A stretch of DNA of 64,000 bases from Patescibacteria group bacterium (GCA_003545435.1 DPYI01000025.1:19701-83700); one strand, 5' to 3'; positions 7,261 to 64,000 are shown, numbered from the stretch's first letter. Notes: generated by a model not told the origin, from the sequence alone. Numbers and translations are program-made.

Positions 7261-7268
7261 GGGAGTAT

Positions 7269-10912: not shown

Positions 10913-11042
10913 AATCTTACAACCTGGCAAGTTTCTCCAGTCATCGTCCAGAAAAGCGTTTTTATTTTATCACAATCGATTTAGATTTTTTTCATATTCT
11001 ATCTCTAAGAGATATGCAACTGGCACATACTACCTTCTATTA

Positions 11043-11071
11043 TTGATTTATCCTTTGTGTTTAAGGATAAT
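11043..11071 (+). promoter_or_regulatory. Candidate sigma70-type promoter for the plus-strand TPP-enzyme gene, in the 178-nt divergent intergenic region 10913..11090
   Basis: TTGATT (11043..11048), a 17-nt spacer, then GATAAT (11066..11071); ATG at 11091. Confidence 0.3.
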
Positions 11072-11090
11072 ACCACTGTTACGTAATTTT

Positions 11091-28116: not shown

Positions 28117-29207
28117 GCTACAAACCATCCTCTCAAAAACAAAGCCGATAAAATAATCTGAAGGATAACAAACAACAGTACAATGCTGTATTGTAAAGAC
28201 CGATTATCCAATTTACCGAGTATCAAAAAAAGAGGAAACGCAGAAAGAATATATCGGGGCATGGAAGATAACGTGCCCGTTAAAGTCGGAAGTGTTATCA
28301 CCAGAAAACTGTACATAAGGTCAGACCATGACGTCTTCATTTTCCATCCTAACCACAAGACGCAATAACCAAACAGTGTTGCGATTAATTCTACTATAGA
28401 TATGAAATAGGAAACCGGTGTCGGCTGGAGAAACGCAGTAAACAGAATCTTTAAATACCGCCACACAACCTGAGGCAATATGATAATACCATCGGTGCGA
28501 TTGGCTCCGAAGAGAGGCTGCATGTGGAAAAAATATAACGGATCACCTTTTGCTACGTATAAATATGTCATATACACAATAAGTCCCATAGGAATACATA
28601 AGATCGAAACAATGTCGCGGAGCAATATTTTTTTGGGCTTCTGACTAATATATTCAATTGCTGCATAAAACAATAATAACGCTCCAAATAGTTTTGTGGC
28701 GCTTGCTAACGCTCCAAATATTCCCGCCCACATCCATAATTTTCTTTTTGAAAATACATACACGAGCACGGAAAGAAGAAAAAATAATCCTTCTGTATAC
28801 ACTGCACAGAAAAAAAAGCTTGTTGGAAAGGTAATTAAAAAAACTACTGTCCACAAAGCGGTATGTTTATTTGTTCCGTATACATAGGAATGGAAAATAA
28901 GAACACCGATACTATATGAGGCCAATGAAATATATGTTCCTATTATCCAATATGGTACATCAAATAATTTTCTAAACGATGAGATAAGTATGGGGTAAAA
29001 CGGGAAGAAAGCTTCGCTTAAATGAAAATATCCATATTCGGCTATACGTAAATAATAAATACCGTCATGGTTTGCCCACGGACTGGGTCCGTTATATCCT
29101 ATATGTAACGGCACCATAGAGGAATATCTCTCGACGATATACAATGCTATCCGCCAAATCATCAATAACAAAATGACATTCCTGCTAATTTCCCAAAACT
29201 TTCTCAT
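28113..29207 (-). CDS. Polytopic membrane protein (364 aa), GT-C/mannosyltransferase-like (DUF2029/PIG-V-like guess)
   Basis: About 10 TM segments, an early periplasmic-loop acidic motif (RIAEYGYFHLSEAFFPFYP). Function inferred from context only. Confidence 0.45.
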   Translation of the reverse strand: MRKFWEISRNVILLLMIWRIALYIVERYSSMVPLHIGYNGPSPWANHDGIYYLRIAEYGYFHLSEAFFPFYPILISSFRKLFDVPYWIIGTYISLASYSIGVLIFHSYVYGTNKHTALWTVVFLITFPTSFFFCAVYTEGLFFLLSVLVYVFSKRKLWMWAGIFGALASATKLFGALLLFYAAIEYISQKPKKILLRDIVSILCIPMGLIVYMTYLYVAKGDPLYFFHMQPLFGANRTDGIIILPQVVWRYLKILFTAFLQPTPVSYFISIVELIATLFGYCVLWLGWKMKTSWSDLMYSFLVITLPTLTGTLSSMPRYILSAFPLFLILGKLDNRSLQYSIVLLFVILQIILSALFLRGWFVA

Positions 29208-36731: not shown

Positions 36732-36760
36732 AGATGTTAGATTGTTAATAATTGTGCGTA

Positions 36761-48058: not shown

Positions 48059-50482
48059 ATGAAACGCCTTATTCCCTACGGAATATTGATTGGAATTATT
48101 GCGTTATTTTTTTATAAAACTGTTTTGTTTCAGAAAATTCCTTTTGCAGGAGATCTGTTGCTTACAAGCTATGCGCCATGGCGCCATGTATCGTATTCCG
48201 GCTATGTTGCCGGAGCAGTTCCCTCTAAAGATCAGTATTTTGACGTCCTCAGGGAACTTTACCCATGGAAAACCGAGGTCTTACGTCAAATTCGTGAAAA
48301 AACAATTCCTTTGTGGAATCCATACAACTTTTCCGGCGGTCCGCTTCTTGCAAATTACCAATCGCAGATTTTTTATCCCTTAACCATTCTGTATTTTTTG
48401 CTTCCCCAAATCACTGCCTGGACATTACTCATCATTCTTCAACCAATACTCGGGAGTATATTTACCTATTTATTTGCGACATCTATCGGAATAAGTATGG
48501 GCGGGGCAATCATTGCTGCCGTCGCATTTAATTTTTCCAGCTTTGCCAATGTCTGGATGGAGTTTAATACCGTCTGGCATACAATTTTATGGCTTCCCCT
48601 CCTTCTTTATTTTGTTGAAAAGGGTATAAGAAACAAACATCTTACTGTCATTGAACAGGTTATTTTCGTTTTTGCAGTATTTTCCTCTATGACAGCAGGA
48701 CACCCGCAGGATTTTATCACTATGTTCTTCTTTTTCCTCATATATAAAGCTGCGCGCATCGCATCAGTAAAAAATTGGTCTCTCAAGGAAAAAATTATCC
48801 TTAGTACCCGCTTCCTGATGCTTACGACGATATCTTTTTTATTGGCCGCTCCGCAGCTTTTACCCACCATTGAACTGTTCAAAAATTCTGCCCGCGTCCC
48901 CCATGACTACCAATTTGTCTTAGATACAATACTTTTCCAACCCTGGCAACTGGGTCTTATTGCAGTTCAGGATTTTTTTGGCAATCCTGCAACAAAAACA
49001 TATTTTCTTTCTGATACATATGTCGGAAAAGTACTATCGATAGGCGTTGTGGGATTATTCCTCTCGTTTTTTTCTCCCTATTCTTCAAAACGGAAATGGC
49101 ATAGCACATTTTTTATTTTCGCGTGCATAGGACTGCTTCTTTTTACCTTTAATACGCCGGTTGCCCGGCTGTTTCACCGATATCCGCTACCGATCCTTTC
49201 TACAGGTGCGCCGACAAGAATCCTTTTTCTTTTTTGTCTCTCGCTTTCCGTATTGGGAGGCTTTGGTTTTGATACACTGTTGGGTTCAAAAAAAATTTTC
49301 TGGAAACCCTTGGTGACTATTGGGGTGATTATCGTTTTTCTTTGGGGATTTGCACTTCTTCATCCGCAATTTCCCGGTTTAACATACACCCAACAGTCCT
49401 TTTTAACCATGAAAAAGGCCATACTCTTCTCCACTGGATGTATTGGTCTTTCCATGCTTCTTATGTATGTGGGCATGTATAAACGGATTATACTTTATGG
49501 ATTTATTGTTCTTCTCTGTGGAGAACTATTCTGGGGATTTAATAAATTTAATCCATTTGTCCCAAAAGAGTTTGTATACCCTGATAATCCGCTCCTAACA
49601 TTTTTTCAAGAAAAGGGAGGGGTTGACCGCATATGGGGCTATGGAACAGCACAAATAGAGGCAAATTTTACGACTCAGTACCGGCTTTTTTCTACCGACG
49701 GAACGGACCCCCTCAATCTCAAATGGTATAACGAATTTATCCAGACAAGCCGCGATGGAAATATTGCAAAAACATTCAACCGAACCACCAGATCCGACGC
49801 ATACGTAGCACCGGGATACGGACAACGCGATTTACCCGATAATATATATAGACTGCGTGTCATGGACAGCTTGGGAGTCAAATATATTATCGACCGGACG
49901 GAAAACCCAAAAGACAACACGACATTTTCCGGTGAAAGATTTAAGGAAATCTGGCGCCAACAAGATTGGAAGGTGTATGAAAATCTCAAAGCCGCACCCA
50001 GATATTTCCTCACTGATTCGTTTCTCACCTATGATACCCCTGAGGAATTTGAACAGAAATTCTTTGATCCAACGATCAATCCTAAACAAACAATTCTTCT
50101 TATGAAAAAGGACGGGATTAGTCTCCCTCAACACACAAAGGGGTTGGCAACTGTGGAGTTGGTTTCGTATAAGCCAAATAAAGTATTATTTAAAACGCAT
50201 GCAGACTCAACCAAGCTTCTTTATCTCTCTGATACATACGATACCGGCTGGAAAGCGACTGTTGACACTATGTTAACTCCTGTCTATAGGGCAAACTATG
50301 CATTCCGTGCAGTCATCGTTCCTGCCGGGAACCATACCATCACTTTTTCCTATCAACCGGATTCATTTCTGTGGGGTATGCGGTTTATGTTTCTTGGGAT
50401 AGGCTCAATAACTGCGCTTGTTGGCTTTCAATTGGTTGTTCAGCATAAAAGACGCGATGTTCAAAAAACCAAGAAAAAATAA
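48059..50482 (+). CDS. YfhO-family membrane glycosyltransferase (GT-C), paralog family D
   Basis: Start trimmed to MKRLIPYGILIG (ATG 48059); LYPWKTEVLRQIREKTIPLWNPYNFSGGPLLAN and C-terminal DTYDTGWKATVD...YRANYAFRAVIVPAGNHTITFSYQP match the YfhO-family signatures. Confidence 0.7.
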   Translation: MKRLIPYGILIGIIALFFYKTVLFQKIPFAGDLLLTSYAPWRHVSYSGYVAGAVPSKDQYFDVLRELYPWKTEVLRQIREKTIPLWNPYNFSGGPLLANYQSQIFYPLTILYFLLPQITAWTLLIILQPILGSIFTYLFATSIGISMGGAIIAAVAFNFSSFANVWMEFNTVWHTILWLPLLLYFVEKGIRNKHLTVIEQVIFVFAVFSSMTAGHPQDFITMFFFFLIYKAARIASVKNWSLKEKIILSTRFLMLTTISFLLAAPQLLPTIELFKNSARVPHDYQFVLDTILFQPWQLGLIAVQDFFGNPATKTYFLSDTYVGKVLSIGVVGLFLSFFSPYSSKRKWHSTFFIFACIGLLLFTFNTPVARLFHRYPLPILSTGAPTRILFLFCLSLSVLGGFGFDTLLGSKKIFWKPLVTIGVIIVFLWGFALLHPQFPGLTYTQQSFLTMKKAILFSTGCIGLSMLLMYVGMYKRIILYGFIVLLCGELFWGFNKFNPFVPKEFVYPDNPLLTFFQEKGGVDRIWGYGTAQIEANFTTQYRLFSTDGTDPLNLKWYNEFIQTSRDGNIAKTFNRTTRSDAYVAPGYGQRDLPDNIYRLRVMDSLGVKYIIDRTENPKDNTTFSGERFKEIWRQQDWKVYENLKAAPRYFLTDSFLTYDTPEEFEQKFFDPTINPKQTILLMKKDGISLPQHTKGLATVELVSYKPNKVLFKTHADSTKLLYLSDTYDTGWKATVDTMLTPVYRANYAFRAVIVPAGNHTITFSYQPDSFLWGMRFMFLGIGSITALVGFQLVVQHKRRDVQKTKKK

Positions 50483-52729
50483 AGAAACAGCGCTTATCCA
50501 TATTCCAATCGTATAAGACAAAGGAGTATATCTCAATACAACTTCTGATTCTCCGGCAGGCACCAATACTGCCCGAAAATTATAATTTGCCCTATAGAGA
50601 TGTTCTTTTTTCCCATTCACTGTAACCGTCCAGCCCGGAGTATGCGCATCCGATATATAAAAAAGGGCAGGCGTATCGGTTATAACCAAAAAACGTTGAC
50701 TGTTTACGTCAGAAGAACGGAGCTCTGCTGATCCCGTGCCTGTTGATAATTCCTTTTCTAAGGACTCCTCAAGGAGTACCGTCGTCCTCAAGTCGGTTTT
50801 TTTATTTCGTATGTCTTCAAGAATCGCCTTTCCGGACAATCCGGACTGCGCCTGATAGAAAAGGCCGAATCTCGGATGGGCATCCTTATTTATATACACA
50901 TCGTGACGTTCATCTTTATAAACCGGACTAAAATTATTCTGAAATAATAAAGAGCCGAAATAAGCAATGGAGGGGTTGTTACCATCTATGGTAACAACGT
51001 AGGATACCCCTAGAACATCAAAAAGATATTTCAGGTTCTTCGTGAAAGCAAATTGATAGTTATTTGTAGGAAAATCCTCCTGTGCTTTTCCCTCAAGAGC
51101 TTTTAATAGTTCGGCGGTTCGGGACAAATACAGCGGATTATATGTTTCTATGCTGAAAATATGTAAGACTGAAGGCACTTCACCCCCTACCAAACCATAC
51201 GTTCTTTGCAGAGTCCCTTCCGTTTTTTCTCTCACAAACTGAACAACCGGAATGTCCGGATACATAAATTTACTATTGGAAAACGTCAAAAATCGGTACC
51301 CCATCCGAAAAAGATCAAAATAGCTTAAGGCAAGAATTGCTACAACGAAGATACATCCTGTTAGGTAATATTTTTTACGTTTGTACATATATAAGCCTAG
51401 AATGACAAAAAATGTGCATGCGACAGCTACAGAAAACTTCAGGTTTCTTACCGTAGCACCGAAAAATACTATATATGTATTCAAAACATACGCCCCGGCA
51501 CATAATACCAGTATTCCGATGATATATGCCGCCGTCCATCTGAGCATCCGCCGATTATTCTGATTTTTCCGAAAAATATCCAATCCGTACCCGGAAAGAA
51601 CCGCGCCTGAAAAAAGCGCGATGAAAAAAAGTCTTCCTCCTGAACCGCTTGTTACAAGGGGAATATGAAGATATGAAAGGAGCAATCCAAACGGCCACAT
51701 AGAAAATACTATGGATAGGACAAATATAATTCCAAAAAAACGGATCGTCGGATCATTTCTTATGCGCGAAAACGCAAACAGCGTAAAAAACAGAGGCACC
51801 AGTCCGTAATATCCGCCTGTTTCGATATACCCGACATGAAGATCCATTGATGCCGGGTGGCCGAATATATCAGGAGAAAAAATCCGAAGTAACTCCTGCG
51901 GACGGATCAAGCCTTCAGAAAAAAGCGTTTTCGTCAATCCCATTCCCCTTCCTGACAAAGAAAACAGTTCTATGCCCGGTATAAGCTGTACTGCCGCAAT
52001 TCCGCATCCGATGATCATCGCACAGAAAATCATCAGAACGTCTTTCCAGGAACTTCGGTAAGATCGACCGATGAAAAAAACGAAAGCAATGACTATTCCA
52101 TATTCATATGCGACCATTTGCAGGTGCCCGGCAAAGAAGGCAAACGCAATACCGATGCTAAGTCCGGTTAAGTATACCCATTGCTTTTTTGCAAGATATT
52201 CATATGCACAGTAACAAAGAAACGGCAACCATATAAGCGTATGTCCATCCGATCCGAATTCTAAAAATCCGACCATGAGTGAAGAATACGCAAAAGCAAC
52301 TGACGCCAACAAACTTCCCCCTACGGAAACAGCTAATTTCCGCATCAAAAGATAACAGAAAAAGAATGCAAGGAAAAGCTGAAAAAACAACAATGCGTTC
52401 CACGCTGATATTTCACCGAACATGAAAAGAAGGTTAAACGGATAAAAAACCATTGGCTTCATACTCGCCATGAAAGGCATTCCGGTAAATTGATACGGAT
52501 TCCATAAAGGAATTATTCCATGCGTCAAAGATGCAAATGTCATATGGCGCCAGGGATACATCTGGATAACACTATCAAGCATGTAGGAATTTTTTATGAG
52601 AATTTGACTGGCCAATAACCAAGGAGCTGAATTGCATACAAGAAGATCAAGCGGCAGAAGTATAAGTCCAGAAAATATTGGATAGATAAAAATCAAAGAC
52701 GCGATAATTCCAATAATAAATCCAACCAT
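50405..52729 (-). CDS. YfhO-family membrane glycosyltransferase, paralog family D
   Basis: 774 aa; MYPWRHMTFASLTHGIIPLWNPYQFTGMPFMAS...DAHTPGWTVTVNGKKEHLYRANYNFRAVLVPAGESEVVLRYTP; its 3' end overlaps the 3' end of the convergent plus-strand paralog by 78 nt. Confidence 0.7.
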   Translation of the reverse strand: MVGFIIGIIASLIFIYPIFSGLILLPLDLLVCNSAPWLLASQILIKNSYMLDSVIQMYPWRHMTFASLTHGIIPLWNPYQFTGMPFMASMKPMVFYPFNLLFMFGEISAWNALLFFQLFLAFFFCYLLMRKLAVSVGGSLLASVAFAYSSLMVGFLEFGSDGHTLIWLPFLCYCAYEYLAKKQWVYLTGLSIGIAFAFFAGHLQMVAYEYGIVIAFVFFIGRSYRSSWKDVLMIFCAMIIGCGIAAVQLIPGIELFSLSGRGMGLTKTLFSEGLIRPQELLRIFSPDIFGHPASMDLHVGYIETGGYYGLVPLFFTLFAFSRIRNDPTIRFFGIIFVLSIVFSMWPFGLLLSYLHIPLVTSGSGGRLFFIALFSGAVLSGYGLDIFRKNQNNRRMLRWTAAYIIGILVLCAGAYVLNTYIVFFGATVRNLKFSVAVACTFFVILGLYMYKRKKYYLTGCIFVVAILALSYFDLFRMGYRFLTFSNSKFMYPDIPVVQFVREKTEGTLQRTYGLVGGEVPSVLHIFSIETYNPLYLSRTAELLKALEGKAQEDFPTNNYQFAFTKNLKYLFDVLGVSYVVTIDGNNPSIAYFGSLLFQNNFSPVYKDERHDVYINKDAHPRFGLFYQAQSGLSGKAILEDIRNKKTDLRTTVLLEESLEKELSTGTGSAELRSSDVNSQRFLVITDTPALFYISDAHTPGWTVTVNGKKEHLYRANYNFRAVLVPAGESEVVLRYTPLSYTIGIWISAVSLFFLGFLNIASFMLNNQLKANKRSY

Positions 52730-52753
52730 ATAATTCAGATAGTATATCAGAAA

Positions 52754-54106
52754 TTATATATTCCTTTTTTCTTTTTTTGGAAATGTCATGTTCGGAAATA
52801 CTGTTGATACATAAAAAACAACAGCAATAAGTACGATAAAGATGCTTATCAGCCATTGAACATGTTTCTGTCCCCATACAGCATAAGGAAAACCGGCGAG
52901 TAGAAAGGGGTGATATACGATATACATATTTATAAAATGAAGGATGCTTAAGGCGAAAAGTCCTGCCATATACCATGGTAAGCATACCGCAAGAATTGTC
53001 AACAATGGAAAAATCGGATACATATATCTTTCGTGCATGCGAGGCAGTACTAAAAATGCAAGAAGCGAGATTATGAATAAATTCCGAATAAGAAAGATGG
53101 TTGAAATTTTTTTTTGAAGAAGATTCAATGCAATTGGTATGAGAAATATAAAAAATATCAGTATCCCATACCAAAAAAGAGGAATACCGTAAAACGCGGA
53201 TGTGTCGCTTGGCGATCCAACCAAATGCATAACGGAAAAGTGAAAAGAATCTTCTATCCCTTCCGGAATTGCATGCGGACGAAATATCATCCACCACACA
53301 TTCAATGCATACGCTGTGATATTTGTCATCTCACCTATTGCGTTATTTTTAATAAACAGAGATATCCATATTAAAGGATTATTGTTTACCGGCAAGGTAA
53401 AAATAAATACAAAACATATCGCAGGAATCAGATATGTGATGTATTTCCCTTTTGGCATATTTTTCCACCACAGAAGGAGCATGAACGGTAGATTGTAGAG
53501 TAATGATAACTTTGTGTAGATACTGAGTAGAAACAACAGTATGCTGGGAAATATTTTTTTATTAAGCAAAAAGTATAGCGAGGCGATAAAAAAGCAATTT
53601 ACTACTGCATCCATCTGGCCCCAGACAGTGCTGTTATAGATAATCACTGGGTTAAAAAGAAATAATCCCATTCCGATATACGGCTGTAGAACATTGGGTG
53701 TAATTTTTTTTAAAATAAAGTAAATGGCGCTTCCGATAATAAGATCAGACAGTATAGGCGGAACACGGAATAAGAGAGTAATCAGGGTTACATTTAACCA
53801 TGGCAGAGATCCTGCAGGCACATGCATCACAGCTAAAACAATTTTACTGATTTGTATACCTATAAAATACATGCACGATAGGATATAGAGAAGGCCCGGA
53901 GGCTGGTTGTTTGGAAGCGTTCCGAATTGAAGGTGTGCGGATTTATACGTATCTGCAAATCCATAAAGGAACGCGATGCGTGCCCAATCTTTATACCGAA
54001 GTATGTCGGTATGTTCGCGTATATCTATAATATGAGACAGGATAACAATACGAAGTAATAATGCTAAAACTATTATAAAAATAAGCCAAAAATATTTTTT
54101 TCTCAT
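52754..54106 (-). CDS. Polytopic membrane protein (about 450 aa), putative GT-C mannosyltransferase-like (DUF2029/GT87-like guess)
   Basis: Start trimmed to MRKKYFWLIFIIV (ATG 54106); about 12 TM segments; periplasmic loop KDWARIAFLYGFADTYKSAHLQFG. Confidence 0.45.
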   Translation of the reverse strand: MRKKYFWLIFIIVLALLLRIVILSHIIDIREHTDILRYKDWARIAFLYGFADTYKSAHLQFGTLPNNQPPGLLYILSCMYFIGIQISKIVLAVMHVPAGSLPWLNVTLITLLFRVPPILSDLIIGSAIYFILKKITPNVLQPYIGMGLFLFNPVIIYNSTVWGQMDAVVNCFFIASLYFLLNKKIFPSILLFLLSIYTKLSLLYNLPFMLLLWWKNMPKGKYITYLIPAICFVFIFTLPVNNNPLIWISLFIKNNAIGEMTNITAYALNVWWMIFRPHAIPEGIEDSFHFSVMHLVGSPSDTSAFYGIPLFWYGILIFFIFLIPIALNLLQKKISTIFLIRNLFIISLLAFLVLPRMHERYMYPIFPLLTILAVCLPWYMAGLFALSILHFINMYIVYHPFLLAGFPYAVWGQKHVQWLISIFIVLIAVVFYVSTVFPNMTFPKKEKRNI

Positions 54107-56496: not shown

Positions 56497-56509
56497 GATA
56501 GTATGGCGT

Positions 56510-57982
56510 TTATTGCACCAGTTGTCGCCACTCTTCCGTCCATGCATAAATAGATGACGGATTGATGCGTATCCACTGTTCTTCGACAAGACGGGCACTG
56601 GATGAAGCTGAAAGGTCTGCTATCGTTCCTGAAGCCGTCGAAATAATCGGCGCAAGAAGACCATCCTGTGTCCTTCTTCGTGTAAAACCAATTGCTCTCC
56701 CCTCATCGGATAACAGATTTTTTTCATCCATATAAAGAACAATAGGTACTGACCTTGGTGCTTCTTCATATTTCCAATCATAAAAAGCAAATGTTTCACC
56801 CGGATACATCTGAGTGAGCATACTACGAACCTCTTTTGACGCTCTTGCTGTCAAATTGATGTGTTCAGAAAACACTTCATTTCCCGTTTTCATCATGGTA
56901 AACACAAAAACAACGAAAATCAGTGCTATGCCGAGATGTCGTTTGATGCAGTATACCCGATACAGCACCCAGGCCGTAATCAAAATGATGAACGGATGAG
57001 TGAATGTGATAAAACTGGAGTAAATCGGAACCCTGGTATATCTGACGAGCACAGTCATGAATCCAAACGAAAGAAATATAAAAAGCCAAGATGTATTCAT
57101 CTTCTTTCGGATTATTTGCAGCACAAAAAAACCAACAGCCAATACCGCAATCAGAATGGCAATCTGTGGAAGTCCGCCGATAATATGCGCCCATTCTTTC
57201 GGCCAAAATTCCGATAAGTATGTAAGCCACCGTCTTCCCAGAACATCAAGTGATATGTTAAATTGATCAAATCTGTAATAATATATCATGTTTTTAATAT
57301 TCACAAATTCATTCGATGTATCCCAAAGAACTATAGGAAGCATCGGAAGAAGCGCTCCAAAAAGAGCAATCAATAAAAATCGTATTTTCGTTTTTCCTCC
57401 TAATATAAATGCCATAAGAACCGGTATTCCCAACGACATACCCTGAAGATGGATCGACGCTCCGAAACCGGCAAAAAAACCCATTCCGAATGCCGAAAGC
57501 AAAGTCTTTTTTTTCATATACCAGATGGCGCAAACAATGGTAAGGAAAGAAAAAATAGGAATTGGGGTTTGATTGGTCAGATTTACTGACTGGGCAATCT
57601 GAGCAGTCGAGAGAGCAGTCAGACCGGCAAGCAGCAAACCGAAAAAACCATTTTCCATTCTTTTCCCCAACATTCCCATTCCGATAATGAGAAGTCCATA
57701 CAATGCCGTTAAAAAAATCCAGGGGGATACAACTGAATATCTACATATGACGGTCGGAACCATGAGCAGCCAGTACCACGTTCCGGAAGTCTGAAATGGT
57801 CCTGCTGAGGAAAACGGACCAACTAACGGAATTTTGCCTTCCTTCAGGGCTTCACGGGCAACAATAGCATCATGAGCCTGATCGTATGCAAGGCCAAAAC
57901 GTTCAGAATAATTCCAAAACCTCAATATGCATCCCAATAGAGTAATGCTAAAAAGAACAATAAGAAATGTATTTTTTTTCAT
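56510..57982 (-). CDS. Polytopic membrane protein, family-B-related
   Basis: 490 aa; AYDQAHDAIVAREALKEGKIPLVGPFSSAGPFQTSGTWYWLLMVP parallels the GFDQGKHW...GDEVGG...GWYYLLAIPF motif of family B. Confidence 0.5.
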   Translation of the reverse strand: MKKNTFLIVLFSITLLGCILRFWNYSERFGLAYDQAHDAIVAREALKEGKIPLVGPFSSAGPFQTSGTWYWLLMVPTVICRYSVVSPWIFLTALYGLLIIGMGMLGKRMENGFFGLLLAGLTALSTAQIAQSVNLTNQTPIPIFSFLTIVCAIWYMKKKTLLSAFGMGFFAGFGASIHLQGMSLGIPVLMAFILGGKTKIRFLLIALFGALLPMLPIVLWDTSNEFVNIKNMIYYYRFDQFNISLDVLGRRWLTYLSEFWPKEWAHIIGGLPQIAILIAVLAVGFFVLQIIRKKMNTSWLFIFLSFGFMTVLVRYTRVPIYSSFITFTHPFIILITAWVLYRVYCIKRHLGIALIFVVFVFTMMKTGNEVFSEHINLTARASKEVRSMLTQMYPGETFAFYDWKYEEAPRSVPIVLYMDEKNLLSDEGRAIGFTRRRTQDGLLAPIISTASGTIADLSASSSARLVEEQWIRINPSSIYAWTEEWRQLVQ

Positions 57983-58061
57983 AACTACTGCATAAGATGA
58001 ATATCTCTTAATTCCTATTCTTTTATAATTGATAATAGTATACTACGCTTATATACCTTTC

Positions 58062-59771
58062 ATGAAGCATACGATTGCACTTTTATTTATAATTTTCTTT
58101 GCTTCAATAATCCGGCTTCTGCTCTTGGACAGAATTCCAACTGCGGTAAGCGGGGATGAGCTGACATATATTGTCACTTCCCGTTCAGTGTATCTAACCG
58201 GTTCTGACATAACAGGAACCTGGCCATTATGGAAAAGCTCTCTATTTCAATATCCCCCTAAAGAACATCAGGCGGAATTACCATACCTTATCATTCTTCC
58301 TTTCGTAGGTTGGTTTGGAAATTCCTTTTTCTGGATCAGATTTCCGTTTGCTGTAATGGGAGTATTAATCGTACTTCTTATGTATCTCATAACGAAACGT
58401 CTTTTTGATAAACAAACAGGGATTGTTGCTGCAGTCTTTGCAGCTGTTAATCCATGGTTGGTATATATGAGCCGGACTGCTTATGAGATGATTCCCGCAA
58501 CGCTGTTTATTCTCTCTTCGATATATTATATTCTGGACAAACAAAAAAAACATATCTATCTGGCTATTCCGTTTCTTATCCTTGCTTTTTATTCCTACAT
58601 CGGCACAAAACTCATCATTCTTCCCCTCATACTTCTTGTTGTTTTCTATGCACGCAACACTTCCCGTAGGAAAAACACACTGCTGCCCCACATCGTCATT
58701 ACTCTTACTGGAATTTTTCTCGTATGCTTCTTTGTCCTTATGCAGAAAGGACAGGGTGGCTCCAGAATGGGAGATTTGTTTCTTCCCAGTGACTCCACCA
58801 TTCAACAAACAGTCGATCAAATGCGTAAAATAACCATTGACAATCCTGTCCGAAATGTACTGATTAATAAAGCCACCGTTTATATATGGACGCTTGCAGG
58901 AAAAGCATTCGCTGCTTTTTCTCCTACGTATCTCTTTTTTGAAGGAGATCTTTTTTTCTCTCTCTGGCATGGTTTTCTCTATGTTATTGATGCACTGTTT
59001 ATTTGCATCGGATTCATCTTTCTTGCATATAAAGATAAAAGGCTTGGACTGTTTTTTGCTCTGCTTCTGTTCCTTTCCATTTTCCCTCAGCTTTTCCATA
59101 AAAATCAGGCCAACTTCTCCAGCCATACAGCACTTCTTATACCTTTTTTGATCATCCTATCCGCCTACGGTGTACGCCAAATCATCGGTATATTCAGTTC
59201 AAAAAACATTCGAAGGCTTGCTGGATTGGTTTTTGCGTTTCTTTATCTTGGGTGTGTCGTGTATTTCCTTCATACGTATTTTTTCCGTTATCCCCTGCAG
59301 GAACGCAATGAATTCCACGTACGGACGCTCTCACGGTATCTTAAACTTACCGAAAATAGGGATACTCGAGTATTTATAAAAACTCCGCATCCTTACAACG
59401 TATTTAAAAAATATGTATTTTATACAAACAATATCCAAAAATCTTCAATACCGATTCTTCGGAAAGCGTATACCAATAAGAATTATACTCTGGGAAACAT
59501 CGTATTTCTTCCCTGTTATACAGATATCCCCAGTGATGGCATATCCTCTTCACTCATCATTGATTCTGATTGTTCAGAGACTATCAATGGACAGGGAAAT
59601 ATACATATTGCACGGCTTGTCGATGGAGGATCTTCCTACACCATATACTTTGATAGAATATGTGGAGATTTTTCTTTAAAAAGATATCCGTATGGCATAA
59701 CGTGGGACGATCTTTCTGTTGAGAAGATGCCTCTCAAGAAATTCTGCGAAACCTACATATCCGAATATTAG
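58062..59771 (+). CDS. ArnT/PMT-like GT-C glycosyltransferase (DE motif)
   Basis: Start trimmed to MKHTIALLFIIFFASIIRLL (ATG 58062); TM1 followed by IPTAVSGDELTYIVTSRSVY (DE motif); about 12 TM segments; C-terminal soluble domain. Confidence 0.6.
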   Translation: MKHTIALLFIIFFASIIRLLLLDRIPTAVSGDELTYIVTSRSVYLTGSDITGTWPLWKSSLFQYPPKEHQAELPYLIILPFVGWFGNSFFWIRFPFAVMGVLIVLLMYLITKRLFDKQTGIVAAVFAAVNPWLVYMSRTAYEMIPATLFILSSIYYILDKQKKHIYLAIPFLILAFYSYIGTKLIILPLILLVVFYARNTSRRKNTLLPHIVITLTGIFLVCFFVLMQKGQGGSRMGDLFLPSDSTIQQTVDQMRKITIDNPVRNVLINKATVYIWTLAGKAFAAFSPTYLFFEGDLFFSLWHGFLYVIDALFICIGFIFLAYKDKRLGLFFALLLFLSIFPQLFHKNQANFSSHTALLIPFLIILSAYGVRQIIGIFSSKNIRRLAGLVFAFLYLGCVVYFLHTYFFRYPLQERNEFHVRTLSRYLKLTENRDTRVFIKTPHPYNVFKKYVFYTNNIQKSSIPILRKAYTNKNYTLGNIVFLPCYTDIPSDGISSSLIIDSDCSETINGQGNIHIARLVDGGSSYTIYFDRICGDFSLKRYPYGITWDDLSVEKMPLKKFCETYISEY

Positions 59772-60646
59772 CAATAGTTCTTCAGTCGTTTTAGAAAGAT
59801 CGGGAAGAAAAAAGGTAATGCGCGGCAAAATCCTTTCACCATAATTGCATCTCCCCGTATTATACTTGTACACAATCGTATTGGAATCCATATCGTACCC
59901 AAAAAGAGTTGATATGCTGATGCGTGTTTCCAGATAAAGAAAAACTGATTGCGGAAAGCGGTTTCTTTTATCATATTCCTGGAATAACGCTGAAAAATTT
60001 TTCCGTCTTCATGAAAATGCTTTACCACACTCTTCGGTTCAAATAATACCCGGTATCCCTTTTTTTTGGCTCGATATGAAAGGTCAATATCTTCCCAATA
60101 AAAGGGGTTATATATCGTATCCATACCTCCTAATTCATTCCATATGGTACGTCTGAAGGCACTACTTCCGCCGGACACCCACGCAGTGTCCGTTTTATCT
60201 ACTTCTCCCCGTTTATGTATATAAAACCCTTTTTCCCATCGACCGATTCCCCTGCCCCGCAAAACTATTTTCCCTTTCTCTATGCTTTTATCCATACACC
60301 CTACGGCAAATACAGTCGGATCGGAAAAATGAGAAATAAGCGGCTCAAGAAATCCTTTTTCCGGTTCAACATCAGTGTTCAGAAGCACAACGATATCGGT
60401 TTTGGCTTCCCGTACACCCACATTGACCGTAGAAGCAAACCCCTCATGCCTGTCTTTTCTAATAGTCCTGATATCGGGAAAATTCTCCTGTATATATGAA
60501 ACAGACTCATCAGTAGAACAATCATCGACAATGATAAGTGTTGCACTCCCGCTGTGCTTTGCCACCTCGCTGAGATGTTTCTCCAACAACAGTTTTCCAT
60601 TCCAATTCGGTATGATGATACTGACGGACATTTTTGGTGTCTTCAT
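59768..60646 (-). CDS. GT2-family glycosyltransferase (soluble)
   Basis: 292 aa; MSVSIIIPNWNGKLLLEKHLSEVAKH...IIVDDCSTDESV; 4-nt convergent overlap with 58062..59771. Confidence 0.75.
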   Translation of the reverse strand: MKTPKMSVSIIIPNWNGKLLLEKHLSEVAKHSGSATLIIVDDCSTDESVSYIQENFPDIRTIRKDRHEGFASTVNVGVREAKTDIVVLLNTDVEPEKGFLEPLISHFSDPTVFAVGCMDKSIEKGKIVLRGRGIGRWEKGFYIHKRGEVDKTDTAWVSGGSSAFRRTIWNELGGMDTIYNPFYWEDIDLSYRAKKKGYRVLFEPKSVVKHFHEDGKIFQRYSRNMIKETAFRNQFFFIWKHASAYQLFLGTIWIPIRLCTSIIRGDAIMVKGFCRALPFFFPIFLKRLKNYC

Positions 60647-62337
60647 GGGGTTTTTATATTTCCTTGGGCAATATATATTGCCGGTGTTCCGTCTAAATAG
60701 TTAATGCGATACAAAGGATCAATAGTAGGGGAAAATTCCTTCGGCAAACCTACAAATAATGTTCTCTTTTTGCTAAAATCATCCAAACTGAATTTGTGGA
60801 ACTCAAATATGTCATACGTATTCCCCTCTTCTCCCCATCCTCCGGATTTCGTCCCTCCCTGTTTGCTATACAAAGCCGGATCGTATTTTGAATAATACAG
60901 CATAAATATATAAGGCCATTCCAATGCCGAAGAAACAACAATGCGATCATAAGAACTTTTATTTTTCATAAGATATTCCGTCATTTCCTTCCTCCCGTAT
61001 ACCCAATCTTTGGATCTTTCATAAGGGATATGCAATATATATTGATGTACATAGTAGTATGAAGATAAACAAATCACGAAACCGAAAATTCCCATAAAAA
61101 TATGTACAGGAATCCTTTTTTCCCGTAAAAAATCATATACACAAAAAACGCCATGCGCTGTGATGATCATTAAAGGAATTGTCATGCCCAAAACCCGTAT
61201 GGCATGAGGTATGTCCCAAGTAATCGACGCAGGAATTGGAGCAATAAGAATCCATAAAATAATATATATCGCCTCACGTTTATCGGATTTTTGTACAAGA
61301 TAATAAAGTCCTAACGGGATAAAAGGAAGCATCCACAAAAAGCAAAGTCCGACAAACGGAGTATGATGCTGTTTTTCATCGTAATCAAAAAAAAGAAAAG
61401 CGGGAGAAAAATGGGTAAAATATCCTTTCAAAACAATATCGGCAGATGTAAATACTGTGTTGTCATGGAATAATCTTCTCGGGAGATTAATACCAAGTTT
61501 CGCATCATAAAACATCTCTTTCTCTTTTTGTTTATATATATCAAGTGCCTGCTGAGTGCTAAATACGCTTGTTCCTTTTACCCGAATATGAACATTATAA
61601 AAAAGCGTGTCACCAATGAGAATAGTGCCGAAAAATCCTGCCGCTACAATAAATCTGACCAAATCATTTTTATTTACTTTCCTCAGATCTTTCCAATAAA
61701 GAAGTGTTAGCACAAGGCCGAGCATGGGTGCAAGAACACGGAAACTTAGGTAAGAGTAGGTTGCCAAACCAAACGAAAGAACCGAAAGCAGAAGAAGTCC
61801 GGGTCTATGCTTCATTCCATAAAGAAACAGAGTTGCCCCCAATGTGATAAAAAAGAGTCCAACGTTAGCCTCAGCAGCCATCCTGGAAAATTGAATGTGC
61901 CACGGAAGAATTGCCAGAAGAAAAGAGGAAAGAAGAGGTATTCGTTCATTGTTAATTGTTGATTGCTTATTGATTGTTGCATTTTGTCCAAGCGCACAAA
62001 GTCCCTTCACAAGAAAAAACAAAGATAACACAGTTAGTACCCCGAAAAATGCTGAAGGGAATCTGACGCTAAAGTCGTTATATCCAAATACTGCAATAGA
62101 TCCGACCGTTAGATATGCATAAACGGGAAGTTTGTAATCATCCAATGATCGGAAATATACCGGCAGAAATTTCCCAAATTCGTCTTTCCCGGTTTTGAGA
62201 ACGGAATACGCATTGTATCCGAATGCTGCTTCATCCCAATTTAAAGACGGCGGGACTGACGGAAACTTATAAAACCGGAAAAATACCGCTATCAAGAGAA
62301 TGCATCCTAACGCAATTTTCACAAAACGCTTCTCCAT
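60643..62337 (-). CDS. ArnT/PMT-like GT-C glycosyltransferase (GT39-like), paralog family C
   Basis: Start trimmed to MEKRFVKIALGCILL (ATG 62337); PPSLNWDEAAFGYNAYSVLKTGKDEFG is homologous to 44584.. and 46277.. Confidence 0.65.
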   Translation of the reverse strand: MEKRFVKIALGCILLIAVFFRFYKFPSVPPSLNWDEAAFGYNAYSVLKTGKDEFGKFLPVYFRSLDDYKLPVYAYLTVGSIAVFGYNDFSVRFPSAFFGVLTVLSLFFLVKGLCALGQNATINKQSTINNERIPLLSSFLLAILPWHIQFSRMAAEANVGLFFITLGATLFLYGMKHRPGLLLLSVLSFGLATYSYLSFRVLAPMLGLVLTLLYWKDLRKVNKNDLVRFIVAAGFFGTILIGDTLFYNVHIRVKGTSVFSTQQALDIYKQKEKEMFYDAKLGINLPRRLFHDNTVFTSADIVLKGYFTHFSPAFLFFDYDEKQHHTPFVGLCFLWMLPFIPLGLYYLVQKSDKREAIYIILWILIAPIPASITWDIPHAIRVLGMTIPLMIITAHGVFCVYDFLREKRIPVHIFMGIFGFVICLSSYYYVHQYILHIPYERSKDWVYGRKEMTEYLMKNKSSYDRIVVSSALEWPYIFMLYYSKYDPALYSKQGGTKSGGWGEEGNTYDIFEFHKFSLDDFSKKRTLFVGLPKEFSPTIDPLYRINYLDGTPAIYIAQGNIKTP

Positions 62338-62341
62338 ATTG

Positions 62342-64000
62342 TTATTCATAACGTAATTGTACTGTGTGAATACCCGCCGGGACAACTATTCCTATAAAAA
62401 TATAGTTGGTTCTGAATGTCTTTACCTTCTTTCCATCTACAAACGCTTTCCAATTTTTGTGGTATATATTTCCGATAAAAAGTAATCTCTGGGCATTCGT
62501 CTGAACCGAAACGTCAATGGCGTTGTCCCTATATGTTGTTATATCTGCTCTCTCTTCAGATGAAATCGGGTCTTTATCGGTGTAAACTTCTTCCTCAATG
62601 ACTCCCTGTGTCCCCATCTGAAACGAGGGAGCGTACAGAGCCTCAATAATCTTTTTTTCTTCCCGTATCACGTCAACATGGTCAAGCAGGTATACCCGAG
62701 GGAGCACGCCCATAAACTCATACACTCTCGTTTGGCCTTCCTGCATGATTTTTTGAAAACGACTATCAAGAATATCTGAAAGGGAAAGAACAAAACGTAC
62801 TCCAAGAAGCTTAAATAAAGGAGAGGTAATATTTTTAGGTGTCACAATGCGGTTAAAACCGAACGGTCCGGTTATATTCGGTTCTCCCCGTTCCATAGCT
62901 GCTATAAACTTTTCATATCTGACACTATACAAAGGATCGTACCCGGATATTGATTCGATGCCGTAATACAAGCTCACATTCGGCGGCATGATTCTGTCGT
63001 CCACGGAGGTTATCCGATACGGTTTTGGTTGTTTTTCAAAAAAAGAAATAATTTCTGTTTTTGGAAAAAATAGACGTGAATCAGTAAACGGAGTAAATTT
63101 CCATGCAAAACGCGACAGATCAAAAAAAGATATACCTATAATGAGTACTGCTCCGGTCAAGGGGATAACCATATTTCGTCTCTTGTTCATTAATTCAAAA
63201 ACAGTACGAATGATAACCACAAGGAAAATTAAAATGCATATAAAAGTCGGAAAAAGGATGTTCCGGCTAGTTACGTCTAATTGTTCCTTTGGAATTCCAT
63301 ACGTATTATTTTTTACTACATACCATATGCATCCAAATAATATTGCTGCCACGGCCACTGTTATTACCGTATATTTTTTCCTGCTGTTATGTATCCAATC
63401 TTCTAATCCGATTGCTGCCAACACGCACAGTCCGACATCAACAATGGCAAGCAGTCTTGTCGGTTGAAGCGATGAAAGGATCGGAATCCGAAAAACATAC
63501 GGTGTGCCAGAAACAGGTGTGGGAAGAGCAAATAGAAGTCCGATAAGTACTACAGAAAACCAAAATGCTATATGACGTTTTTTCTTTGAAAAGATTGAAT
63601 ACAGTACAAAAAATAATCCAGCTATTCCGATATATCCGCAAAACTCCCCGTAATTCCATATCCCCCAATAGTTTAGAGTAGCAGGGTTACCAAAAAAATC
63701 AGGGGTCACAAACTGTATAAGATTTTGAAAAGGAAGAAAAAATCCTTCATTTTTAACTAATGCTCCGTCCTGTAATCTGCTCATACCCGGGAGTTCTGAA
63801 AGAACGGGTATCCAATGGACAGATGTCAATAACATAAACAAACCGAGACTTCCCGCAATTTCCAAAAATACACCTGTACGAAAAATAGCGGATGGTTTTT
63901 GATCTAAAAAACGGAAAATCGCGTAGGCAATCAATAAAATAAAGGAATATAAAAATACCTGACTGTGTCCGGCAAAATATTGTGCTGCTAAAACCAAACC
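62342..64000 (-). CDS. YfhO-family membrane glycosyltransferase, C-terminal about 550 aa (gene start lies beyond the window end)
   Basis: The ORF runs to position 63997 with no N-terminal LWNPY region in the window; C-terminal NIYHKNWKAFVDGKKVKTFRTNYIFIGIVVPAGIHTVQLRYE matches the YfhO C-terminal signature. Confidence 0.6.
   Translation of the reverse strand, partial: GLVLAAQYFAGHSQVFLYSFILLIAYAIFRFLDQKPSAIFRTGVFLEIAGSLGLFMLLTSVHWIPVLSELPGMSRLQDGALVKNEGFFLPFQNLIQFVTPDFFGNPATLNYWGIWNYGEFCGYIGIAGLFFVLYSIFSKKKRHIAFWFSVVLIGLLFALPTPVSGTPYVFRIPILSSLQPTRLLAIVDVGLCVLAAIGLEDWIHNSRKKYTVITVAVAAILFGCIWYVVKNNTYGIPKEQLDVTSRNILFPTFICILIFLVVIIRTVFELMNKRRNMVIPLTGAVLIIGISFFDLSRFAWKFTPFTDSRLFFPKTEIISFFEKQPKPYRITSVDDRIMPPNVSLYYGIESISGYDPLYSVRYEKFIAAMERGEPNITGPFGFNRIVTPKNITSPLFKLLGVRFVLSLSDILDSRFQKIMQEGQTRVYEFMGVLPRVYLLDHVDVIREEKKIIEALYAPSFQMGTQGVIEEEVYTDKDPISSEERADITTYRDNAIDVSVQTNAQRLLFIGNIYHKNWKAFVDGKKVKTFRTNYIFIGIVVPAGIHTVQLRYE

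What the first reader, a model, noticed from the sequence alone, without database searches (positions are those of the whole stretch)
48059..64000. Four YfhO-family paralogs in 16 kb, arranged convergently and divergently with ArnT/PMT-like genes
YfhO-type GT-C enzymes glycosylate lipoteichoic or wall teichoic acid in Firmicutes, usually as one or two copies per genome. Here four copies (48059..50482 plus-strand, 50405..52729, 54103..56496, 62342..>64000) all keep the N-terminal LWNPY and C-terminal GW...YRANYAFRA..VP.G.H motifs but diverge elsewhere. This is consistent with different acceptor or donor specificities.
Basis: partly seen in the sequence, partly recalled or inferred. Interest (0 to 1): 0.6.

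Follow-up and report, generated by a model that had tools for sequence, protein, structure and literature searches.

The report
YfhO glycosyltransferase array in a CPR bacterium
The four genes are real YfhO-type membrane sugar-transferases, part of a conserved array that likely builds or decorates the cell-surface sugar coat of a tiny groundwater bacterium (Gottesmanbacteria), with no sign of a link to teichoic acid.

Summary
Four ORFs (48059-50482 +, 50405-52729 -, 54103-56496 -, 62342->64000 -) score 74-90 bits against Pfam YfhO (cut-off 28.5). They are only 25-30% identical to one another. The DNA is contig LCFF01000001.1 of Microgenomates bacterium GW2011_GWC1_43_11 (Gottesmanbacteria, CPR), and public databases already call these proteins "YfhO family".

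The finding understates the context:
- A fifth YfhO gene lies just past the window end.
- At least 18 GT-C-type membrane glycosyltransferase ORFs fill the 64 kb window.
- The glycan island spans at least 82 kb.

An AlphaFold model of paralog 2 (pLDDT 87) has a GT-C fold; its nearest solved structures are AftD, STT3/AglB and ArnT. One Asp in the first outer loop, the WNP motif and one Arg are invariant in 127 relatives.

In 77 related genomes, almost all Microgenomates, 2-3 YfhO genes per 22 kb is the norm. The paralogs fall into conserved, syntenic subfamilies, so they are old and non-redundant. That fits distinct specificities.

No teichoic-acid genes occur in the 82 kb examined, and YfhO enzymes are also known to glycosylate proteins. 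A GtrB-type and a DPMS-type lipid-phosphate-sugar synthase in the island could supply donors. Verdict: ordinary family membership in a striking but lineage-typical array. The acceptor is unknown.

The parts
48059..50482 (+). YfhO paralog Y1 (807 aa; an alternative ATG at 48017 gives 821 aa)
   Evidence: PF09586 73.8 bits. About 13 TM helices plus a 270-aa outer domain and a last TM. Carries LWNPY and YRANYAFRAVIVPAGNH. The Y1 subfamily has orthologs in most related loci.
50405..52729 (-). YfhO paralog Y2 (774 aa), convergent with Y1 with a 78-bp 3' overlap
   Evidence: PF09586 90.2 bits. AF2 model with pLDDT 86.7 and pTM 0.88. GT-C fold: Foldseek AftD 6e-8, then STT3, AglB, ArnT. D52, W76-N77-P78 and R509 are invariant in 127 relatives. 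UniRef name 'Bacterial membrane protein YfhO'.
52754..54154 (-). Gpi18/PIG-V-like GT-C candidate (450-466 aa, 9 TM) between Y2 and Y3
   Evidence: No Pfam hit of its own. JGI names its homologs 'Gpi18-like mannosyltransferase', and some carry PF06728, PF09594 or PF03155.
54103..56496 (-). YfhO paralog Y3 (797 aa)
   Evidence: PF09586 73.9 bits. Carries LWNPY and YRANYAFRAISVPEGEH. UniRef name 'YfhO family protein'.
56510..57982 (-). Polytopic membrane protein (490 aa, 8 TM), probable distant PMT_2-type GT-C
   Evidence: Only weak BLAST links to PMT_2-type paralogs (E 2e-5 to 8e-4). PMT_2 is far below threshold at 8.7 bits. The assignment is tentative.
58029..59771 (+). PMT_2/STT3-like GT-C (about 570-580 aa)
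   Evidence: PMT_2 42.6 bits and STT3 25 bits, both above their cut-offs. The GenBank record instead calls a 253-aa ORF on the opposite strand.
59768..60646 (-). GT2 glycosyltransferase (292 aa, one C-terminal TM), a conserved neighbour of the Y5-Y4 pair
   Evidence: Glycos_transf_2 83 bits. Best PDB matches are 6YV7 (2e-9) and DPMS 5MLZ (3e-7). Homologs occur in 31 of 77 related loci, typically right after the Y5-Y4 pair.
60643..62349 (-). PMT_2-type GT-C (568 aa), paralog of 44584-46284 and 46277-47977
   Evidence: PMT_2 24.2 bits, just under the cut-off. 33-40% identical to the two upstream PMT/PMT_2 genes.
62342..64000 (-). YfhO paralog Y4, C-terminal 552 codons only; the full gene is 762 aa and runs past the window end
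   Evidence: PF09586 81.6 bits. The full length was recovered from the contig (L005 7720-10008). This subfamily lacks the C-terminal membrane anchor in 26 of 26 members.
46277..47977 (-). PMT/PMT_2 GT-C divergent from Y1
   Evidence: PMT 27.7 bits and PMT_2 27.6 bits, both above their cut-offs.
8081..9028 (-). GtrB/PgfS/ArnC-type polyprenyl-phosphate sugar synthase (315 aa, two C-terminal TM), a candidate donor supplier
   Evidence: PDB GtrB 5EKP at E 2.4e-61 over the full length; ArnC 4e-29. NCBIfam PgfS 226 bits.
27436..28128 (-). DPMS/AglJ-type polyprenyl-phosphate sugar synthase (230 aa), a candidate donor supplier
   Evidence: PDB DPMS 5MLZ 3e-17; ArnC 6e-16. NCBIfam AglJ 119 bits. Homologs lie next to YfhO genes in 34 of 77 related loci.

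Best explanation
The four genes, plus a fifth just outside the window, are old and functionally distinct members of the YfhO family of GT-C membrane glycosyltransferases. They lie in a Gottesmanbacteria (Microgenomates, CPR) genome, inside an island of at least 82 kb devoted to surface-glycan synthesis.

Proposed mechanism:
1. Cytoplasmic enzymes in the island make unusual nucleotide sugars.
2. GT-A enzymes load single sugars onto polyprenyl phosphate. The candidates are the GtrB/PgfS type (8081-9028), the DPMS type (27436-28128) and perhaps the GT2 at 59768-60646.
3. The lipid-linked sugars are flipped across the membrane by an unidentified flippase.
4. Each YfhO paralog transfers a sugar on the outer face of the membrane to an acceptor held by its extracytoplasmic C-terminal domain. 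Catalysis would use the invariant Asp of the first outer loop.
5. Different paralogs, and the roughly 14 other GT-C enzymes around them, would handle different donor, acceptor or linkage combinations. Together they build or decorate a complex envelope polysaccharide or glycoconjugate.

Shown here: family membership, fold, topology, conserved residues, subfamily conservation and synteny, and the presence of lipid-phosphate-sugar synthases. Inferred: the enzymatic activity, the use of those particular donors, and the distinct specificities. Unknown: the acceptor.
For: - Family: Pfam YfhO is above threshold for all four ORFs.
- Architecture: 12-13 TM helices, then an outer domain of about 260 aa, then a last TM. 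This matches the published B. subtilis YfhO topology (PMC5836110).
- Fold: the AF2 model (pLDDT 86.7) matches GT-C enzymes AftD, STT3/AglB, ArnT, AftA and EmbC at E 6e-8 to 4e-4.
- Conserved residues: D52 is present in 126 of 127 sequences, R509 in 127 of 127, and W76/N77/P78 in 97-99%. D52 lies in the first loop after TM1. That loop is extracytoplasmic by the positive-inside rule.
- Age of the paralogs: they are 25-30% identical. Each has orthologs at 38-63% identity in other genera that score about twice as high as any other paralog. Gene order recurs: Y5-(GT4)-Y4-GT2 in at least 15 loci, and the Y1/Y2 convergent pair in L007, L009 and L050.
- Context: 69% of ORFs of 200 aa or more in 77 related loci have a homolog among this window's ORFs, almost all of them its GT-C and GT2 families.
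- Donor synthases: GtrB-type and DPMS-type.
- Precedent: GtrB works with YfhO-family PgtC2, and PgfS with PgfM1, in streptococci (PMC12041528). CsbB works with YfhO in Bacillus and Staphylococcus (PMC5836110, PMC8035078).
- Divergence pattern: the paralogs differ most in the alpha/beta part of the outer domain (23% identity) and least in outer loop 1 (35%).
Against: - There is no biochemical or genetic evidence for any CPR YfhO.
- Catalytic residues of the YfhO family have not been defined experimentally. No DxD motif is conserved here, only a single Asp.
- D52 does not align cleanly with a Bacteroides YfhO-family protein, whose first outer loop is shorter.
- The GtrB-type gene is about 40 kb away from the YfhO genes, not paired with them in an operon as csbB-yfhO is.
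- No GtrA/GtcA-type small flippase gene fits in the window. The largest intergenic gap is 285 bp.
Confidence: 0.75

Rival explanations
1. Teichoic-acid glycosylation. The YfhO paralogs would add different sugars to lipoteichoic or wall teichoic acid, as B. subtilis and S. aureus YfhO (LTA GlcNAc) and L. monocytogenes YfhO (WTA GlcNAc) do.
For: These are the best-characterised YfhO functions (PMC5836110, PMC8035078). CPR bacteria are described as monoderm with peptidoglycan (PMC6146748, PMC11809585), so a wall polymer acceptor is conceivable.
Against: No TagF/TarF-type, LtaS-type or TagD-type family appears among the Pfam hits for the 82 kb examined. Homologs of the window's own ORFs, almost all GT-C and GT2 genes, account for 69% of the large ORFs in 77 related loci. 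Full-text searches for YfhO together with CPR or Saccharibacteria returned nothing, and two CPR genome papers read here do not report teichoic acids in CPR; one proposes rhamnose wall polysaccharides instead (PMC11809585). Sequence similarity to Firmicute YfhO-type models is confined to the C-terminal 60-75 residues (NCBIfam PgfM1/PgfM2, E 1e-4 to 1e-6).
Confidence: 0.08
2. Protein O-glycosylation. The YfhO paralogs, together with the PMT_2-type enzymes, would transfer sugars from polyprenyl-phosphate donors to Ser/Thr-rich regions of S-layer, pilin or other surface proteins, like streptococcal PgtC2 and PgfM1/PgfM2. This is a specific version of the best explanation with a protein acceptor.
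For: YfhO-family PgtC2 with GtrB, and PgfM1 with PgfS, glycosylate extracytoplasmic Ser/Thr-rich regions (PMC12041528). The island's GtrB-type enzyme scores best against the PgfS model (226 bits). PMT_2 and STT3-like genes are interleaved with the YfhO genes. CPR cells carry an S-layer (PMC6146748), and CPR pilins have been predicted to be O-glycosylated (PMC11623550).
Against: No candidate acceptor protein is encoded in the 82 kb seen. The island also carries Wzx-type flippases and many cytoplasmic GT2 and GT4 enzymes, which are typical of polysaccharide repeat-unit synthesis. Similarity to PgfM1/PgfM2 is marginal.
Confidence: 0.3
3. Redundant or decaying duplicates. The copies would be recent tandem duplications with no separate roles, some on the way to becoming pseudogenes.
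For: One related assembly (L006) shows Y4 split in two by a 55-bp deletion between GTTATC repeats.
Against: Pairwise identity is only 25-30%. Every copy keeps the invariant residues. Each has its own orthologs in conserved order in other genera. The other apparent disruptions in L006 are runs of N from scaffolding.
Confidence: 0.03

Closest known systems
YfhO of Bacillus subtilis and Staphylococcus aureus (LTA GlcNAc transferase) and Listeria monocytogenes Lmo1079 (WTA GlcNAc); Pfam PF09586
   Same: Same Pfam family, above threshold. Same architecture of about 13 TM helices with a large outer domain between the last two helices. Predicted GT-C fold. A GtrB/CsbB-type lipid-phosphate-sugar synthase is encoded in the same island.
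   Different: The host is a CPR bacterium with no evidence of teichoic acid. There are five clustered paralogs rather than one gene paired with csbB. No GtcA-type flippase gene is nearby. Sequence similarity is remote, and Y4 lacks the last TM helix.
Streptococcal PgtC2 and PgfM1/PgfM2 (YfhO-family protein O-glycosyltransferases working with GtrB or PgfS)
   Same: YfhO family. Several paralogs occur in one organism (S. mutans has three). They partner with a GtrB/PgfS-type synthase, and the island's synthase scores best against PgfS.
   Different: NCBIfam PgfM1/PgfM2 models match only the C-terminal 60-75 residues, at 18-25 bits against cut-offs of 1400-1500. No Ser/Thr-rich acceptor genes are seen nearby. 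The reported DxD motif is not conserved here.
Mycobacterial and corynebacterial GT-C batteries (EmbA/B/C, AftA-D, MptA-C) that assemble arabinogalactan and lipoarabinomannan outside the membrane
   Same: Many GT-C enzymes share a few polyprenyl-phosphate monosaccharide donors, each making a distinct linkage. AftD is the best structural match of the Y2 model. An AftD-like ORF lies at 4103-6331.
   Different: The match is at the level of fold only (about 12% identity, TM-score about 0.4). The GT-C subfamilies differ, and neither the glycan product nor the donors are known.
ArnT/PMT (PF13231 PMT_2, PF02366 PMT) 4-amino-arabinose and protein mannosyl transferases
   Same: The neighbouring genes 46277-47977, 58029-59771 and others hit these profiles. 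The wider island also has ArnC-like, DegT (ArnB-like) and formyltransferase genes.
   Different: These are neighbours, not the YfhO genes themselves. No lipid A is expected in a monoderm CPR bacterium.

Membership tests
YfhO family (Pfam PF09586) | Whole-protein score against the family profile at or above the curated gathering score (28.5 bits) | tested here: met
   73.8, 90.2, 73.9 and 81.6 bits for Y1-Y4. Y4 full length and Y5 carry precomputed PF09586 hits.
YfhO family (Pfam PF09586) | About 13 TM helices with a large extracytoplasmic domain between the last two helices (B. subtilis YfhO topology, PMC5836110) | tested here: met
   The hydropathy scan gives 12-13 TM segments and a gap of about 260-275 aa before the last TM in Y1-Y3. 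The AF2 model of Y2 agrees. Exception: the Y4 subfamily lacks the last TM in 26 of 26 members.
YfhO family (Pfam PF09586) | Conserved C-terminal beta-sandwich motif (GW..V.G....R.NY.F.A..VP.G.H) shared with YfhO-family proteins of cultured bacteria | tested here: met
   The motif aligns with a PGAP-annotated Bacteroides finegoldii YfhO family protein; W700, R713, Y716, P724 and G726 are invariant. The GW...VP.G.H part also occurs in PTPS_related paralogs.
GT-C glycosyltransferase superfamily (GT-C_A type) | GT-C membrane fold | tested here: met
   The Y2 model (pLDDT 86.7, pTM 0.88) matches AftD 6W98 (E 6e-8), STT3, AglB, ArnT 5F15, AftA and EmbC by Foldseek. No sequence-detectable PDB relative exists.
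GT-C glycosyltransferase superfamily (GT-C_A type) | Conserved acidic catalytic residue in the first extracytoplasmic loop | tested here: met
   D52 (Y2 numbering) is present in 126 of 127 family members and lies in the first loop helix after TM1. A second Asp (D28) is kept in only 79 of 127; it is N in Y3 and K in Y5. A catalytic role is inferred, not shown.
Three-component transmembrane glycosylation system (GT-A CsbB/GtrB + GtrA/GtcA flippase + GT-C) | GtrB/CsbB-type polyprenyl-phosphate sugar synthase encoded with the GT-C gene | tested here: inconclusive
   A full-length GtrB homolog (5EKP, E 2e-61) and a DPMS-type enzyme are in the island, but 40 kb and 20 kb from the YfhO genes. The adjacent GT2 (59768-60646) is of uncertain type. 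DPMS-type genes do sit beside YfhO genes in 34 of 77 related loci.
Three-component transmembrane glycosylation system (GT-A CsbB/GtrB + GtrA/GtcA flippase + GT-C) | Small GtrA/GtcA-family flippase | tested here: not met
   No GtrA hit was found among the ORFs scanned. ORFs under 150 aa (under 100 aa in 40-64 kb) were not scanned. No intergenic gap exceeds 285 bp. Only Wzx-type flippases are present (26000-27262 and L005 177-1622).
Teichoic-acid glycosylating YfhO (functional class) | The genome encodes teichoic acid synthesis (TagF/TarF, LtaS, TagD or TarIJ) | not testable with these tools
   None of these families appears in the 82 kb of the contig examined. The other contigs of GCA_000998865.1 could not be retrieved.
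Teichoic-acid or protein-glycosylating YfhO (functional class) | Demonstrated transfer of a sugar from polyprenyl-phosphate sugar to the acceptor | not testable with these tools
   This needs biochemistry or genetics, and no cultured Microgenomates exist.

The most novel reading that the evidence does not exclude
Microgenomates may assemble their main envelope glycopolymer or glycoprotein coat largely on the outer face of the membrane, from polyprenyl-phosphate monosaccharides. The machinery would be a conserved super-cluster of about 20-25 GT-C enzymes, including five ancient YfhO subfamilies, that takes up roughly 8% of an estimated ~1 Mb genome (size inferred from related Gottesmanbacteria assemblies). 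That would be a CPR counterpart of mycobacterial arabinogalactan/LAM assembly. The conserved adjacent pairs (Y5-Y4 and Y1/Y2), with Y4 always lacking its C-terminal anchor, could work as hetero-oligomers in the way Pmt1-Pmt2 or EmbA-EmbB do.
Probability: 0.3. Interest if true: 0.6.

Novelty: new member of a known kind. Interest (0 to 1): 0.35.

Why it matters
CPR bacteria have tiny genomes and are thought to live attached to other cells, so their surface chemistry is central to their biology and almost unknown. This genome spends at least 82 kb on glycan synthesis, with about 18 or more GT-C enzymes in 64 kb. The same array recurs across Microgenomates, which suggests an elaborate, conserved surface glycan made outside the membrane. 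The five conserved YfhO subfamilies give a natural comparative set for learning what determines donor and acceptor choice in a family that has no solved structure and no defined catalytic residues. For annotation, the practical point is that 'YfhO' should not be read as 'teichoic acid' outside the Firmicutes.

Tried and rejected
1. Strain-level variation. A related assembly (L006) seemed to have Y4, the GT2 gene and Y2 disrupted. Alignment showed that two of the three are runs of N from scaffolding. Only a 55-bp deletion in Y4 is real sequence. This is not evidence for a variable locus.

2. Phase variation. Heptamer repeats lie inside coding regions at 47537-47603, 40815-40851 and 37233-37262. 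Repeat length does not vary among the three or four independent assemblies that cover the two repeats checked, 47537-47603 and 40815-40851. Rejected for lack of evidence.

3. Solved-structure relatives by sequence. None was found with a single sequence or a profile.

5. Promoter and terminator scan of 47-64 kb. Counts were no higher than in shuffled sequence, so it was uninformative.

6. Literature. Full-text searches for YfhO together with CPR or Saccharibacteria returned nothing.

7. NCBIfam equivalogs. Only marginal C-terminal hits to PgfM1/PgfM2, far below their cut-offs, so no functional equivalence can be claimed.

8. Weak Pfam scan of the unannotated membrane ORFs. Nothing usable was found.

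9. tRNA scan. None in the window.

Full report
**1. What is there**

- Y1: 48017/48059-50482 (+)
- Y2: 50405-52729 (-)
- Y3: 54103-56496/56598 (-)
- Y4: 62342 to the window end (-)

 All four pass the Pfam YfhO profile (PF09586, cut-off 28.5 bits) with 73.8, 90.2, 73.9 and 81.6 bits. They match one another over nearly full length at only 25-30% identity, with E 1e-34 to 1e-98.

The described arrangement is correct:
- Y1 and Y2 converge and overlap by 78 bp.
- Y1 diverges from a PMT/PMT_2 gene (46277-47977).
- A PMT_2/STT3-like gene (58029-59771, +) sits between minus-strand genes.

The motif statement needs correction. LWNPY is present in Y1-Y3. The N-terminus of Y4 is outside the window, and the full protein has PWNPF. 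Y2 has VPAGES rather than VP.G.H. Y4 has FRTNYIFIG and ends without the last membrane helix.

**2. Source and existing annotation**

Exact-sequence look-ups place the window on contig LCFF01000001.1 (108,597 bp) of assembly GCA_000998865.1. The organism is Microgenomates group bacterium GW2011_GWC1_43_11, filed by UniRef under Candidatus Gottesmaniibacteriota. The same sequence is found in groundwater metagenome assemblies. UniRef already names Y2 'Bacterial membrane protein YfhO' and Y3 'YfhO family protein'. NCBI names orthologs 'YfhO family protein'. Family assignment is therefore not new.

**3. Context is much larger than the finding**

Pfam scans of every large ORF show that the whole 64 kb is one glycan-synthesis island. 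Besides the four YfhO genes it holds:
- seven PMT/PMT_2-type ORFs
- three PTPS_related-type ORFs
- two further paralogs of a PMT_2-type gene
- an AftD-like ORF
- a Gpi18-like ORF at 52754-54154 (its homologs are so named by JGI)
- a weak candidate at 56510-57982

That is at least 18 GT-C-type ORFs. The island also holds five polytopic proteins of unknown family, a Wzx flippase, GT2 and GT4 enzymes, two DegT aminotransferases, sugar epimerases and dehydratases, a nucleotidyltransferase, a thiamine-diphosphate enzyme and a split transketolase.

Flanks fetched from the contig extend the island to at least record positions 18,017-100,080, or 82 kb. They reveal a fifth YfhO gene (777 aa) just beyond the window end, separated from Y4 by a GT4 gene. 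Five YfhO genes therefore lie within about 20 kb.

**4. Fold, topology and conserved residues**

A hydropathy scan gives 12-13 membrane helices, then about 260-275 residues, then a last helix in Y1-Y3. This is the architecture published for B. subtilis YfhO (PMC5836110).

An AlphaFold2 model of Y2, built on 56 sequences, has mean pLDDT 86.7 and pTM 0.88. Foldseek against the PDB returns GT-C enzymes only as significant hits: AftD (E 6e-8), STT3 and AglB oligosaccharyltransferases, ArnT, AftA and EmbC. No PDB entry is detectable by sequence, either with the single protein or with a profile. The family therefore has no solved structure in that copy of the PDB.

I aligned 127 family members: Y1-Y5 plus 122 ORFs from related genomes. 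The near-invariant positions, in Y2 numbering, are:
- D52: 126 of 127
- W76, N77, P78: 97-99%
- G83, G201, G290, G309, W700, G726: 100%
- Q204: 97%
- R509: 127 of 127

 D52 lies in the first helix of the loop after TM1. That loop is outside the cell by the positive-inside rule. From my own knowledge of GT-C structures, this is where GT-C_A enzymes carry their catalytic Asp. A second Asp right after TM1 (D28) is kept in only 79 of 127 sequences; it is Asn in Y3 and Lys in Y5.

A PGAP-annotated Bacteroides YfhO-family protein shares W76, R509 and the C-terminal motif. Its first loop is shorter and D52 does not align cleanly.

**5. How unusual is the array?**

The best 77 loci are almost all from Microgenomates: Gottesman-, Levy-, Shapiro-, Chisholm-, Woese- and Curtiss-bacteria. 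Many carry placeholder titles such as 'uncultured Gammaproteobacteria'.

Of the 42 loci at least 20 kb long, 12 carry one YfhO ORF, 15 carry two and 15 carry three.

Each of those ORFs is clearly closest to one of Y1-Y5. Typical scores are 500-800 bits against about 300-370 for the next paralog. Gene order recurs:
- Y5, then Y4 3-4 kb downstream on the same strand, followed by a homolog of the GT2 at 59768-60646, in at least 15 loci.
- The Y1/Y2 convergent pair in L007, L009 and L050.

The Y4 subfamily ends 6-11 residues after the VPxGx motif in 26 of 26 members, so it never has the terminal membrane anchor. All other subfamilies keep a tail of about 40 residues.

In the related loci, 69% of ORFs of 200 aa or more have a homolog among this window's ORFs. 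The main families are YfhO (143), PMT_2-type (130), PTPS_related-type (107) and several GT2 types.

The paralogs are therefore ancient, separately conserved and syntenic. The array is a hallmark of the lineage, not a peculiarity of this genome. The family itself is very large: 18,730 representatives of 50%-identity clusters at E<=1e-30.

**6. Mechanism**

Established precedent for YfhO enzymes is a relay. A GT-A enzyme loads a sugar onto undecaprenyl phosphate, the lipid is flipped, and the GT-C enzyme transfers the sugar outside the cell. Known examples:
- CsbB/YfhO acting on lipoteichoic acid in Bacillus and Staphylococcus
- The Listeria system acting on wall teichoic acid (PMC5836110, PMC8035078)
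- GtrB/PgtC2 and PgfS/PgfM1 acting on Ser/Thr-rich protein regions in streptococci (PMC12041528)

The island encodes candidate donor suppliers:
- A full-length GtrB homolog at 8081-9028: PDB 5EKP E 2.4e-61, ArnC 4e-29, NCBIfam PgfS 226 bits.
- A DPMS/AglJ-type enzyme at 27436-28128. Homologs of this one sit beside YfhO genes in 34 of 77 related loci.
- The GT2 adjacent to Y4, which is of uncertain type: best PDB match 6YV7, then DPMS.

I therefore propose that the YfhO paralogs transfer sugars from polyprenyl-phosphate donors to extracytoplasmic acceptors. Each subfamily would have its own donor, acceptor or linkage. The paralogs differ most in the alpha/beta part of the outer domain (23% identity) and least in outer loop 1 (35%), which weakly fits divergent acceptor recognition. 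Activity, donors and acceptor are all inferred.

**7. The teichoic-acid reading**

Nothing in the 82 kb examined belongs to a teichoic-acid synthesis family. Two CPR genome papers read here describe a monoderm envelope with peptidoglycan; one adds an S-layer and the other suggests rhamnose wall polysaccharides. Neither reports teichoic acids in CPR (PMC6146748, PMC11809585). No paper in the library links YfhO with CPR. I could not retrieve the rest of the genome, so this point remains untested genome-wide. I give the teichoic-acid reading low probability. Polysaccharide and protein both remain open as acceptors.

**8. Verdict**

The family assignment is correct but already in public databases. 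'Different specificities' is supported indirectly by subfamily conservation. The teichoic-acid frame is not supported. What is noteworthy is the scale and conservation of the GT-C array in a very small genome, which appears undescribed in the searchable literature. As a finding it is a new member of a known kind, and of moderate interest.

Noticed in passing
window 58029-59771 (+) versus 58365-59126 (-): The GenBank record calls a 253-aa and a 53-aa ORF on the minus strand with no Pfam hit. The opposite-strand 580-aa ORF hits PMT_2 (42.6 bits) and STT3, and an ENA annotation of the same DNA calls it as a gene. The GenBank gene call looks spurious and hides a GT-C gene.
   Followed up: partly
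L005 7720-10008 (full Y4; window 62342->64000) and 26 orthologs in L009-L083: The Y4 subfamily always stops 6-11 residues after the VPxGx motif, so it lacks the C-terminal membrane anchor that every other YfhO subfamily keeps. It almost always sits just downstream of a Y5-type gene, which raises the possibility that the two work as a pair.
   Followed up: partly
window 6328-8090 (-) and 10887-12872 (+): A split transketolase (N and C halves as separate genes) and an acetolactate-synthase-like thiamine-diphosphate enzyme are embedded among nucleotide-sugar genes and the GtrB-type synthase. This suggests synthesis of a branched-chain or two-carbon-extended sugar.
   Followed up: no
window 47537-47603, 40815-40851, 37233-37262: Short heptanucleotide tandem repeats lie inside coding regions of glycosyltransferase-island genes (for example AAATTTC x4 plus degenerate copies in the PMT_2 gene 46277-47977). 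For the two repeats checked (47537-47603 and 40815-40851), copy number is identical in the three or four independent assemblies that cover them, so there is no sign of phase variation.
   Followed up: yes
L006 about 9175 (equivalent to window about 62.8 kb, inside Y4): One related metagenome scaffold carries a 55-bp deletion between GTTATC direct repeats that frameshifts Y4. The other apparent gene disruptions on that scaffold are runs of N. It could be a real population variant or an assembly error.
   Followed up: partly
window 50405-50482: The convergent genes Y1 and Y2 overlap by 78 bp at their 3' ends, within the last membrane helix and tail of both proteins. A similar 60-bp overlap is seen in L008, but there is none in L009 or L050.
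   Followed up: partly
L084 11189-21176 (contig beyond the window start): The island continues with an acyltransferase_3, WbqC, two GH130-like genes, a B12-binding radical SAM enzyme, a formyltransferase and a methyltransferase. Together with the ArnC-like and DegT genes, this resembles parts of an Arn-type formyl-aminosugar pathway.
   Followed up: no
L061 and L074: YfhO-family genes 31-45% identical to Y1 occur on contigs of MAGs labelled Nanoarchaeota and Pacearchaeota (DPANN archaea). This is either binning contamination by CPR DNA or horizontal transfer.
   Followed up: no
window 34443-36863 (-): An 806-aa ORF with a signal-anchor, an outer domain of about 450 aa and six C-terminal membrane helices. 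It has no Pfam hit and no homolog in the 77 related loci, so it is the one large island gene not shared with relatives.
   Followed up: no
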